From NCBI RefSeq assembly GCF_022846255.1, contig NZ_AP025682.1: a DNA stretch of 64,000 nt; one strand, given 5' to 3'. Made by a program: the position numbers. The first letter of the stretch is position 1. The number at the start of each line of letters is the position of its first letter. This stretch comes from Escherichia coli (GTDB taxonomy: Bacteria > Pseudomonadota > Gammaproteobacteria > Enterobacterales > Enterobacteriaceae). Below are positions 7,509 to 8,087 of this stretch, one piece after another.

Positions 7509-8087
7509 TTACCAGGATGATTCTCAAAACAGCACAAATTATCAAAGATGATTTTTTCGGGAGCGATCCCGTTGACGCCAGAGCCACCAAGGGGTGACGC
7601 GCGTCACATTTCTATTCATAAGTAGCGTTAATCATTCATATCACGAATATTTTCTTGTCAGCGAAAAAAATTGCGGATAAGGTGATGAACACATCAGATT
7701 TCCTGGTGTAACGAATTTTTTAAGTGCTTCTTGCTTAAGCAAGTTTCATCCCGACCCCCTCAGGGTCGGGATTTTTTTATTGTGCATTCAACGATTCACT
7801 TCAGAGACGCTGAAGTCATGAATATCCAGTTCGAAGGCATCCGCCAATTCACGCCATGTATGATATTCACGTCCATCGACGCTAACGTGTTCAGAATCGT
7901 TCTGGCTGCGATGAACTTCGCTTTCGCTAATTTCATTGATCGCCGCCAGCAGGGCATCGACATCGACGCTGACCTCACGTTTTGCGGTATCGCTGTACTC
8001 TTTTGCGGTTTTCATCATCTTTCCTCGCAACCGTTACTCTGTTGTTGCCGCCAGTCGTTAAGTCCGCCTGGCATCTCTTAAGTATAG

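What the first reader, a model, noticed from the sequence alone, without database searches (positions are those of the whole stretch)
7650..7790. DsrA sRNA packed between yedP and yodD, terminator abutting the convergent yodD stop
The 87-nt DsrA sequence is present intact on the plus strand (7688-7774). Its terminator hairpin (CCCGACCCCCTCAGGGTCGGG plus U-tract) ends 14 nt before the stop codon of convergent yodD, so the same hairpin may terminate both transcripts. DsrA regulates rpoS and hns translation and is easily missed by protein-centric annotation.
Basis: partly seen in the sequence, partly recalled or inferred. Interest (0 to 1): 0.25.

Follow-up and report, generated by a model that had tools for sequence, protein, structure and literature searches.

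The report
DsrA small RNA, terminator shared with yodD
This is the well-known E. coli regulatory RNA gene dsrA, identical to the laboratory-strain copy, and published RNA-end mapping indicates that its terminator hairpin also marks the end of the oppositely oriented yodD message, an arrangement of a kind already described in bacteria.

Summary
Window 7688-7774(+) matches Rfam DsrA over the full model (102.5 bits, gathering score 60). The promoter, sRNA, 9-nt gap and yodD are 100% identical to E. coli K-12 MG1655 (dsrA b1954, yodD b1953). The gene order dgcQ, yedP, dsrA, yodD, dsrB, rcsA is the K-12 order.

DsrA's 3' end is at 2025229(-), which is window 7772, in all three conditions. A yodD 3' end is at 2025257(+), which is window 7744 and lies 4 nt past the same hairpin read on the other strand. 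It appears only in LB OD 2.0 and M63, which fits yodD's RpoS dependence. The two RNAs overlap by 29 nt.

The yodD side has no U-tract in E. coli or in 74 other enterobacterial sequences. It is therefore not a canonical bidirectional intrinsic terminator. It fits the known "overlapping bidirectional terminator" class, or exonuclease trimming back to the hairpin.

Close packing is conserved across about 20 genera, with a gap of 2-13 nt in 67 of 70 measurable loci. Stem mismatches are always A•C on the DsrA strand, which is G•U on the yodD strand, and never the reverse.

Verdict: already known and ordinary, so low interest.

The parts
7655..7660 (+). dsrA promoter -35 element TTGTCA
   Evidence: Read directly from the sequence. 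CTTGTCA is conserved at this distance from DsrA +1 in 75 distinct enterobacterial upstream sequences. Identical to K-12. The simple sigma-70 scan did not call this promoter because the -10 is a weak consensus match.
7675..7683 (+). dsrA promoter -10 region GGATAAGGT. It holds TAAGGT with a 17-nt spacer, or GATAAG at -12 to -7.
   Evidence: Sequence. GATAAGGT/GATAATGT is conserved across genera. Which hexamer is the true -10 was not verified, because Repoila and Gottesman 2003 is not held.
7688..7778 (+). dsrA gene. The 87-nt form ends at 7774. The K-12-annotated 91-nt form ends at 7778. The dominant Term-seq 3' end in K-12 maps to 7772 (nt 85).
   Evidence: Rfam RF00014, 102.5 bits. 100% identical to K-12 b1954 at 2025223..2025313. 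Term-seq 3' end at 2025229(-) in three conditions with 6-9e5 reads.
7691..7709 (+). DsrA stem-loop 1 (nt 4-22)
   Evidence: Rfam consensus structure and RNAfold minimum-free-energy structure.
7713..7746 (+). DsrA stem-loop 2 (nt 26-59)
   Evidence: Rfam consensus structure and RNAfold minimum-free-energy structure.
7748..7772 (.). Shared GC-rich hairpin. It is DsrA stem-loop 3 (the terminator stem) on the + strand, and the same palindrome folds in the yodD 3'UTR on the - strand.
   Evidence: Found by the + strand terminator scan. The isolated hairpin segment folds on both strands, at -17.7 kcal/mol (+) and -18.9 kcal/mol (-); the structure also forms in longer contexts. Covariation across 54 distinct sequences: 50 cells changed on both sides, reached by 0 of 500 shuffles.
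7772..7778 (+). U-tract (T7) of the DsrA intrinsic terminator
   Evidence: There is no equivalent tract on the - strand, where the tail is GAAACUUGCUUAAG.
7779..7787 (.). 9-nt spacer between the DsrA U-tract and the yodD stop codon
   Evidence: The equivalent gap is 2-13 nt in 67 of 70 measurable enterobacterial loci.
7744..7787 (-). yodD 3'UTR, 44 nt, ending ...GGGAUGAAA-3'. It is complementary to DsrA nt 57-91.
   Evidence: The K-12 Term-seq 3' end at 2025257(+) maps to window 7744. The mapping is valid because the region is 100% identical to K-12.
7788..8015 (-). yodD coding sequence (75 aa plus stop), convergent with dsrA
   Evidence: ORF list. PGAP annotation of a 100%-identical record. 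K-12 b1953.
6675..7490 (-). yedP coding sequence, divergent from dsrA across a 197-nt intergenic region

Best explanation
Window 7688-7778(+) is the dsrA gene. It encodes an Hfq-dependent small RNA that, in E. coli K-12, activates rpoS translation and represses hns by base pairing (established knowledge). It is transcribed from a conserved TTGTCA / GATAAGGT promoter and ends at a canonical intrinsic terminator: a 10-bp stem that is GC-rich (8 of the 10 pairs are G-C) plus U7.

The same palindromic hairpin lies 9 nt beyond the stop codon of the convergent, RpoS-dependent yodD gene. In vivo it defines the 3' end of yodD mRNA, which has a 44-nt 3'UTR ending 4 nt past the stem. The two transcripts therefore overlap by 29 nt across the hairpin.

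On the DsrA side this is ordinary intrinsic termination. The yodD side has no U-tract. I infer that the yodD end is made by hairpin-dependent, non-canonical termination of the 'overlapping bidirectional terminator' type, meaning a hairpin-induced pause plus head-on collision with polymerases from the much stronger dsrA promoter. Read-through transcripts may also be trimmed back to the hairpin.

Shown here: identity, structure, both 3' ends, and conserved packing. Inferred: the mechanism of 3'-end formation on the yodD strand.
For: - Rfam DsrA match of 102.5 bits over the full model.
- Three-stem fold with z = -5.7.
- 100% identity to K-12 across promoter, sRNA, gap and yodD.
- K-12 annotation of dsrA b1954 and yodD b1953, 9 nt apart.
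- The locus is present in 5,338 of 5,426 complete E. coli genomes, at 99% identity or more in 5,046.
- Term-seq (PMC7815308, supplementary file 1) shows DsrA at 2025229(-) in LB 0.4, LB 2.0 and M63. It shows yodD at 2025257(+) only in LB 2.0 and M63.
- That condition pattern matches yodD being RpoS-dependent (bioRxiv 2023.11.09.566509).
- The hairpin folds on both strands.
- A convergent yodD homolog was found in 76 of 80 contexts. The 4 without one are cut off by the locus end. The gap is 2-13 nt in 67 of the 70 loci where it could be measured, spanning about 20 genera.
- Salmonella keeps the same gene order (PMC2515195).
- The stem covaries strongly.
- Its only mismatches are A•C on the DsrA strand, which are G•U on the yodD strand: 12 of 41 distinct stems, against 0 for the reverse. 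In the 58 loci with full flanks, 12 carry such a mismatch and parsimony on a rough tree gives about 9 state changes.
- Overlapping bidirectional terminators that lack intrinsic-terminator features are a described E. coli class (bioRxiv 2022.10.23.513370, citing Ju et al. 2019).
- 99 'primary and antisense' 3' ends are reported in the Term-seq study.
Against: - The yodD strand has no U-tract after the stem. The tail is GAAACUUGCUU, and the terminator scan finds nothing on that strand. No U-tract exists in any of 74 related sequences.
- Term-seq maps stable 3' ends, not termination events. An end 4 nt past a stable stem is also what 3'-to-5' exonuclease trimming would leave.
- The yodD end has about 80-fold fewer reads than DsrA's in LB 2.0 and is absent in LB 0.4.
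- Rho dependence could not be assessed. The BCM data are from LB 0.4, where yodD is not detected, and downstream C/G composition is uninformative.
- All Term-seq data are from K-12, not this strain, although the sequence is identical.
Confidence: 0.86

Rival explanations
1. The hairpin does not terminate yodD transcription. RNA polymerase reads through, antisense to dsrA and toward yedP. The mapped yodD 3' end is a processing product: 3'-to-5' exonucleases stall at the stable stem, or RNase III cuts a yodD-3'UTR/DsrA duplex.
For: There is no U-tract on the yodD strand in any species. The 3' end is only 4 nt past the stem. DsrA's own Term-seq end (nt 85, the first U of the tract) also looks trimmed. 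The neighbouring dsrB 3' end likewise sits 4 nt past a U-less hairpin. The authors of the Term-seq study attribute most of their 3' ends lying in 5' UTRs or inside ORFs to processing.
Against: No additional + strand 3' end downstream of 2025257 appears in the curated LB 2.0 or M63 lists near this locus. U-less overlapping bidirectional terminators have been shown to terminate in vitro and in vivo at other convergent E. coli pairs. The mismatch asymmetry shows selection on the yodD-strand hairpin, but that would be expected under either termination or protection.
Confidence: 0.35
2. The tight spacing is incidental genome compaction. The hairpin matters only for DsrA, and yodD simply happens to abut it.
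For: The hairpin is a fully sufficient canonical terminator for DsrA alone. Convergent genes are often closely packed in enterobacteria (general knowledge).
Against: The 2-13-nt gap is kept in 67 of 70 measurable loci across about 20 genera, while the spacer sequence itself diverges. A yodD 3' end maps just past the hairpin. Stem mismatches are always the kind that still pair on the yodD strand, 12 against 0. That is the opposite of what DsrA-only selection predicts.
Confidence: 0.1
3. The region is a degenerate or non-functional DsrA-like sequence.
For: None found.
Against: The Rfam match covers the full model with no broken pairs. The region, including the promoter, is 100% identical to the experimentally characterised K-12 gene. 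The identical K-12 sequence is abundantly expressed.
Confidence: 0.01

Closest known systems
DsrA sRNA of E. coli K-12 (dsrA, b1954; Rfam RF00014)
   Same: The sequence is identical from the -35 box through the terminator, the spacer and the whole of yodD. Synteny is the same: dgcQ, yedP, dsrA, yodD, dsrB, rcsA, fliR.
   Different: Nothing in the element itself differs. A few SNPs lie further upstream toward yedP and in the yodD-dsrB intergenic region, so this is a non-K-12 E. coli strain.
Overlapping bidirectional terminators between convergent E. coli genes (Ju, Li and Liu 2019; Wang et al. 2022 preprint, e.g. ynaJ-uspE)
   Same: The pair is convergent, one hairpin sits in the overlap, and the 3' ends of the two transcripts are mapped on opposite sides of the hairpin with a 29-nt overlap. 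At least one side lacks intrinsic-terminator features.
   Different: Here one partner is a canonical intrinsic terminator of a very abundant sRNA, and expression is about 80-fold asymmetric. Collision dependence and Rho independence are untested at this locus. I could not check whether this pair is in the published SEnd-seq list, because the paper is not held.
Canonical bidirectional intrinsic terminator (A-tract, GC hairpin, U-tract)
   Same: A perfectly Watson-Crick GC-rich hairpin that folds on both strands.
   Different: There is no A-tract upstream on the DsrA strand, and therefore no U-tract on the yodD strand. This holds in all 74 related sequences.
dsrB-rcsA convergent pair, 600 bp away in the same window
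   Same: A shared perfect hairpin (8378-8403) lies between two stop codons 43 nt apart. In K-12, the dsrB Term-seq 3' end is 4 nt past the stem, with no U-tract, and is classed 'primary, antisense'.
   Different: Both partners are protein-coding genes and no sRNA is involved.

Membership tests
DsrA (Rfam RF00014) | Covariance-model score at or above the curated gathering score, over the full model | tested here: met
   102.5 bits against 60, model positions 1-85 of 85, E = 1.5e-18.
DsrA (Rfam RF00014) | Three stem-loops, the third being a Rho-independent terminator with a U-tract | tested here: met
   The cmscan structure line has no non-canonical pairs. RNAfold gives the same three stems, z = -5.7. 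The terminator scan hits at 7748-7772 plus T7.
DsrA (Rfam RF00014) | Target-pairing sequences for rpoS and hns as in the characterised E. coli RNA | tested here: met
   Met by identity: all 91 nt are identical to K-12 dsrA. That these residues pair with rpoS and hns is established knowledge and was not re-tested here. DsrA-rpoS chimeras are reported in PMC8545128.
DsrA (Rfam RF00014) | Conserved genomic context (between yedP and yodD/dsrB/rcsA) | tested here: met
   The same order is reported in Salmonella. A convergent yodD homolog was found in 76 of 80 contexts.
DsrA (Rfam RF00014) | Expressed as a discrete Hfq-binding RNA of about 85-87 nt | not testable with these tools
   Not testable for this strain. 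For the identical K-12 sequence, Term-seq gives a strong 3' end at nt 85. Hfq enrichment is reported in Salmonella.
Canonical bidirectional intrinsic terminator | GC-rich hairpin that folds on both strands | tested here: met
   -17.7 kcal/mol on the + strand and -18.9 kcal/mol on the - strand.
Canonical bidirectional intrinsic terminator | U-tract immediately 3' of the stem on both strands | tested here: not met
   The + strand has T7. The - strand tail is GAAACTTGCTT. The scan calls the + strand only. A U-tract is absent from the - strand in all 74 related sequences.
Overlapping bidirectional terminator of a convergent pair (Ju et al. 2019 class) | Convergent transcription units whose mapped 3' ends overlap across a shared hairpin | tested here: met
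   Public K-12 Term-seq gives 2025229(-) and 2025257(+), a 29-nt overlap spanning the stem. The sequence is identical to the window.
Overlapping bidirectional terminator of a convergent pair (Ju et al. 2019 class) | Termination independent of Rho and dependent on convergent transcription (RNAP collision) | not testable with these tools
   The BCM data set is LB 0.4 only, where the yodD end is absent. No experiment with an inactivated dsrA promoter is available.

The most novel reading that the evidence does not exclude
The DsrA terminator hairpin may be under selection at least as strongly on the yodD strand as on the DsrA strand. Across Enterobacteriaceae, compensatory stem changes pass only through intermediates that are A•C mismatches in DsrA but G•U wobbles in the yodD 3'UTR. 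This occurs at 2 stem positions and in at least 6 lineages, and the reverse is never seen.

One reading is that the U-less yodD side depends entirely on stem strength to stop sigma-S-driven yodD transcription. Without that stop, transcription would run antisense through dsrA and its promoter into yedP. The hairpin would then insulate the sigma-S activator DsrA from a sigma-S-dependent convergent gene, and any leak would form a negative feedback on DsrA.
Probability: 0.3. Interest if true: 0.35.

Novelty: already known. Interest (0 to 1): 0.12.

Why it matters
It matters little beyond annotation hygiene. DsrA is one of the best-studied bacterial sRNAs, and this copy is identical to the K-12 gene.

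Two points are worth recording. First, the automatically annotated E. coli RefSeq records examined here omit dsrA. An annotation built only on proteins would show an apparently empty 297-nt yedP-yodD intergenic region.

Second, the locus is a clean, conserved example of one hairpin serving two convergent transcripts of very different abundance. One side is a textbook intrinsic terminator and the other lacks a U-tract. If the strand-asymmetric mismatch pattern survives a proper control, it would offer a simple comparative signature for telling which strand of a shared terminator hairpin is under selection.

Tried and rejected
1. Canonical bidirectional intrinsic terminator: rejected. There is no U-tract on the yodD strand in E. 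coli or in 74 related sequences.

2. Rho-dependent termination of yodD downstream of the hairpin: could not be assessed. C/G composition of the 253 nt downstream is balanced. The published BCM experiment was done in LB OD 0.4, where the yodD end is not detected.

3. Literature that could not be read:
- Ju et al. 2019 (SEnd-seq list of bidirectional terminators) is not held.
- Repoila and Gottesman 2003 (dsrA promoter) is not held, so the exact -10 hexamer is not verified.
- Supplements of Dar and Sorek 2018 and Melamed et al. 2016 are not held.

4. Search for a reported DsrA-yodD RNA-RNA interaction: the only paper with both yodD and RIL-seq names yodD merely as a flanking gene. Papers holding 'yodD' and 'terminator' do not discuss this terminator.

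5. The sigma-70 consensus scan did not detect the dsrA promoter because its -10 is too weak a match. The promoter was placed from sequence and cross-species conservation instead.

6. The neighbour-joining tree rests on about 1.3 kb and is rough, so the Fitch count of about 9 state changes is approximate.

7. One sequence (L045, Trabulsiella) was mis-registered by my stem parser. It has an A•G mismatch and was excluded from the asymmetry count.

8. No control set of unidirectional sRNA terminators was analysed. A mutational-bias explanation of the asymmetry therefore stands untested. All observed changes correspond to T>C on the DsrA-sense strand.

Full report
**What is there**

Rfam cmscan of the whole window gives a full-length DsrA match (RF00014) at 7688-7774 on the + strand. 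It scores 102.5 bits against a gathering score of 60, with E = 1.5e-18, model positions 1-85 of 85 and no non-canonical pairs. The 91-nt stretch 7688-7778 folds into three stem-loops at -31.9 kcal/mol, z = -5.7, with 0 of 200 shuffles folding as well. The stems are SL1 at 7691-7709, SL2 at 7713-7746 and SL3 at 7748-7772. The quoted hairpin CCCGACCCCCTCAGGGTCGGG lies at 7750-7770, followed by A and T7 at 7771-7778. It is the only strong terminator-like site the consensus scan finds near here, and it is on the + strand only.

**Context**

The ORF list and two annotated records give this gene order:

| Gene | Window coordinates | Strand |
|---|---|---|
| dgcQ | 4969-6678 | + |
| yedP | 6675-7490 | - |
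| dsrA | 7688-7778 | + |
| yodD | 7788-8015 (75 aa) | - |
| dsrB | 8178-8366 | + |
| rcsA | 8410-9033 | - |
| fliR | 9323-10108 | - |

This is the K-12 order in reverse orientation. Aligning window 7491-8177 to K-12 MG1655 gives 99% identity. Every difference lies upstream of the dsrA -35 box or in the yodD-dsrB intergenic region. The promoter, DsrA, the spacer and all of yodD are 100% identical.

K-12 annotates dsrA (b1954) at 2025223..2025313(-) and yodD (b1953) ending at 2025213(+), so they are 9 nt apart. In the window these 9 nt are 7779-7787.

The 161-nt promoter-plus-sRNA stretch is present in 5,338 of 5,426 complete E. coli genomes, at 99% identity or more in 5,046.

**The promoter**

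TTGTCA (7655-7660) and GGATAAGGT (7675-7683) sit at the right distance from +1. They are conserved in 75 distinct upstream sequences from other Enterobacteriaceae. I could not read the promoter paper by Repoila and Gottesman 2003, so the exact -10 hexamer is not verified.

**The shared-terminator idea**

Because the sequence is identical, K-12 coordinates transfer directly, with window = 7778 - (K-12 - 2025223). Supplementary file 1 of Adams et al. 2021 (PMC7815308) lists two relevant ends.

| RNA | K-12 position | Window | LB OD 0.4 | LB OD 2.0 | M63 OD 0.4 |
|---|---|---|---|---|---|
| DsrA | 2025229(-) | 7772 (nt 85) | 603,756 | 887,088 | 777,985 |
| yodD ('primary, antisense') | 2025257(+) | 7744 | absent | 11,227 | 2,463 |

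I checked that the listed 61-mers place the 3' end at position 51, using the dsrA annotation and the yodD stop codon. The yodD transcript therefore ends ...GGGAUGAAA-3', 4 nt past the hairpin as read on the yodD strand. This gives a 44-nt 3'UTR (window 7787..7744) that overlaps DsrA by 29 nt across SL3.

The condition pattern fits yodD being 'the most purely RpoS dependent' of four tested promoters (bioRxiv 2023.11.09.566509). The hypothesis survives.

**How it probably works**

On the DsrA strand this is textbook intrinsic termination. On the yodD strand the isolated hairpin folds at least as well, at -18.9 against -17.7 kcal/mol (the structure also forms in a longer context). It is followed by GAAACUUGCUU, not a U-tract. 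It is therefore not a canonical bidirectional intrinsic terminator.

It does match the described class of 'overlapping bidirectional terminators' between convergent E. coli genes. Members of that class do not resemble intrinsic terminators, do not depend on Rho, and are proposed to work by hairpin-induced pausing plus head-on RNA polymerase collisions (bioRxiv 2022.10.23.513370, citing Ju et al. 2019). The Term-seq study itself counts 99 '3' ends that are primary and antisense', so such geometry is common.

Term-seq cannot separate termination from exonuclease trimming back to a stable stem. DsrA's own end at the first U of the tract looks trimmed. The neighbouring dsrB end also sits 4 nt past a U-less hairpin. 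I rate processing as a serious alternative or contributor, at about 0.35.

**Comparative evidence**

An exact 20-mer from DsrA SL1 retrieved 78 loci from about 20 genera of Enterobacteriaceae.
- A convergent yodD homolog was found in 76 of 80 contexts. The 4 without one are cut off by the locus end.
- The distance from the end of the T-run to the yodD stop codon could be measured in 70 loci and is 2-13 nt in 67 of them, with modes at 4 and 9. One Siccibacter locus has 30 nt. In the Buttiauxella loci the T-run is interrupted, so no gap was computed, and two of them have the stop codon more than 100 nt further downstream.
- Salmonella is reported with the same order (PMC2515195).
- No species has a U-tract on the yodD side. 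That sequence is constrained by being the complement of the DsrA SL2/linker.

The stem covaries strongly. Of the pair-by-sequence cells, 92.4% form standard pairs and 50 show changes on both sides, a value reached by 0 of 500 shuffles.

**An asymmetry noticed along the way**

In one search the count of 'one side changed' pairs, which are the G•U intermediates, is zero at all nine pairs. The unpaired cells cluster at two stem positions. My per-sequence parse shows that these are A•C or C•A on the DsrA strand, which are G•U wobbles on the yodD strand. This holds in 12 of 41 distinct stems, against none of the reverse kind.

The mismatches occur in these groups:
- Salmonella and the Citrobacter freundii complex
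- Superficieibacter and UBA5654
- Escherichia whittamii
- several Enterobacter species
- Pseudenterobacter
- Citrobacter sp. NCU1

On a rough neighbour-joining tree of 58 loci with full flanks, 12 loci carry such a mismatch and Fitch parsimony needs about 9 state changes. As a result the hairpin is more stable on the yodD strand in 64 of 74 distinct sequences, with means of -17.2 and -15.3 kcal/mol.

If only DsrA's terminator were selected, the opposite bias would be expected. The pattern suggests selection on the yodD-strand hairpin, which is plausible because that side has no U-tract to lean on. There are caveats. All changes correspond to T>C on the DsrA-sense strand, so mutational bias is not excluded. 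The lineages are related. I ran no control on unidirectional terminators.

**Comparison with what is known, and novelty**

The element is DsrA itself, and every defining feature that could be tested here is met. The shared hairpin is an instance of a known class, and the relevant 3' ends already sit in a public table, although I found no paper that discusses this pair.

The PGAP/RefSeq records examined here list yodD, yedP and dsrB under the match but no dsrA feature (one feature table; 20 listed hit rows). The curated K-12 record does annotate it.

**Verdict**

The mechanism on the yodD side remains inferred. The finding is already known and of low interest (0.12). The most novel reading not excluded is that the hairpin is maintained mainly for the yodD strand, insulating dsrA from sigma-S-driven convergent transcription (probability about 0.3, interest if true about 0.35).

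Noticed in passing
window 7748-7772; loci L003-L080: Mismatches in the DsrA terminator stem across Enterobacteriaceae are strand-asymmetric. 12 of 41 distinct stems carry an A•C or C•A mismatch on the DsrA strand, which is a G•U wobble on the yodD strand. None carries G•U on the DsrA strand. The hairpin is more stable on the yodD strand in 64 of 74 sequences.
   Followed up: partly
window 8378-8403 (between the dsrB stop at 8364-8366 and the rcsA stop at 8410-8412): A second convergent pair shares a perfect hairpin, CTGACTGGTGG-GAAA-CCACCAGTCAG, with no U-tract on the dsrB side. The K-12 Term-seq dsrB 3' end at 2024594(-) maps to window 8407, 4 nt past the stem, and is classed 'primary, antisense to rcsA'.
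   Followed up: partly
L081 (E. coli strain B-1109, NZ_CP117971.1), locus 1792-2489: An IS1A element is inserted inside dsrA, at about nt 22 of the sRNA. This strain is a natural dsrA disruptant with yodD and the terminator hairpin left intact.
   Followed up: partly
L001 (NZ_CP033850.1) and the hit rows listed: The automatically annotated RefSeq E. coli records examined (one feature table and 20 listed hit rows; 5,338 genomes hold the locus) show no dsrA feature, although the sequence is present. Only the curated K-12 record annotates it.
   Followed up: partly
window 59664-59741 (-): Full-length Rfam match to C0465 RNA (RF00116): 100.3 bits against a gathering score of 40.
   Followed up: no
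window 41153-41454 (+): A cluster of three tRNA genes: Gly(GCC), Cys(GCA) and Leu(TAA). From memory, this is the glyW-cysT-leuZ cluster of E. coli.
   Followed up: partly
window 7772 (K-12 2025229): The dominant Term-seq 3' end of DsrA is nt 85, the first U of the U7 tract. It is not within or at the end of the tract, which suggests 3' trimming or a library bias.
   Followed up: no
L039, L056, L058, L067, L069 (Buttiauxella spp.); L012 (Siccibacter): These are exceptions to the tight packing. The Buttiauxella DsrA homologs have an interrupted T-run (ATTCTTTT), and in two of them (L056, L067) the yodD stop lies more than 100 nt further downstream. Siccibacter has a 30-nt gap.
   Followed up: no
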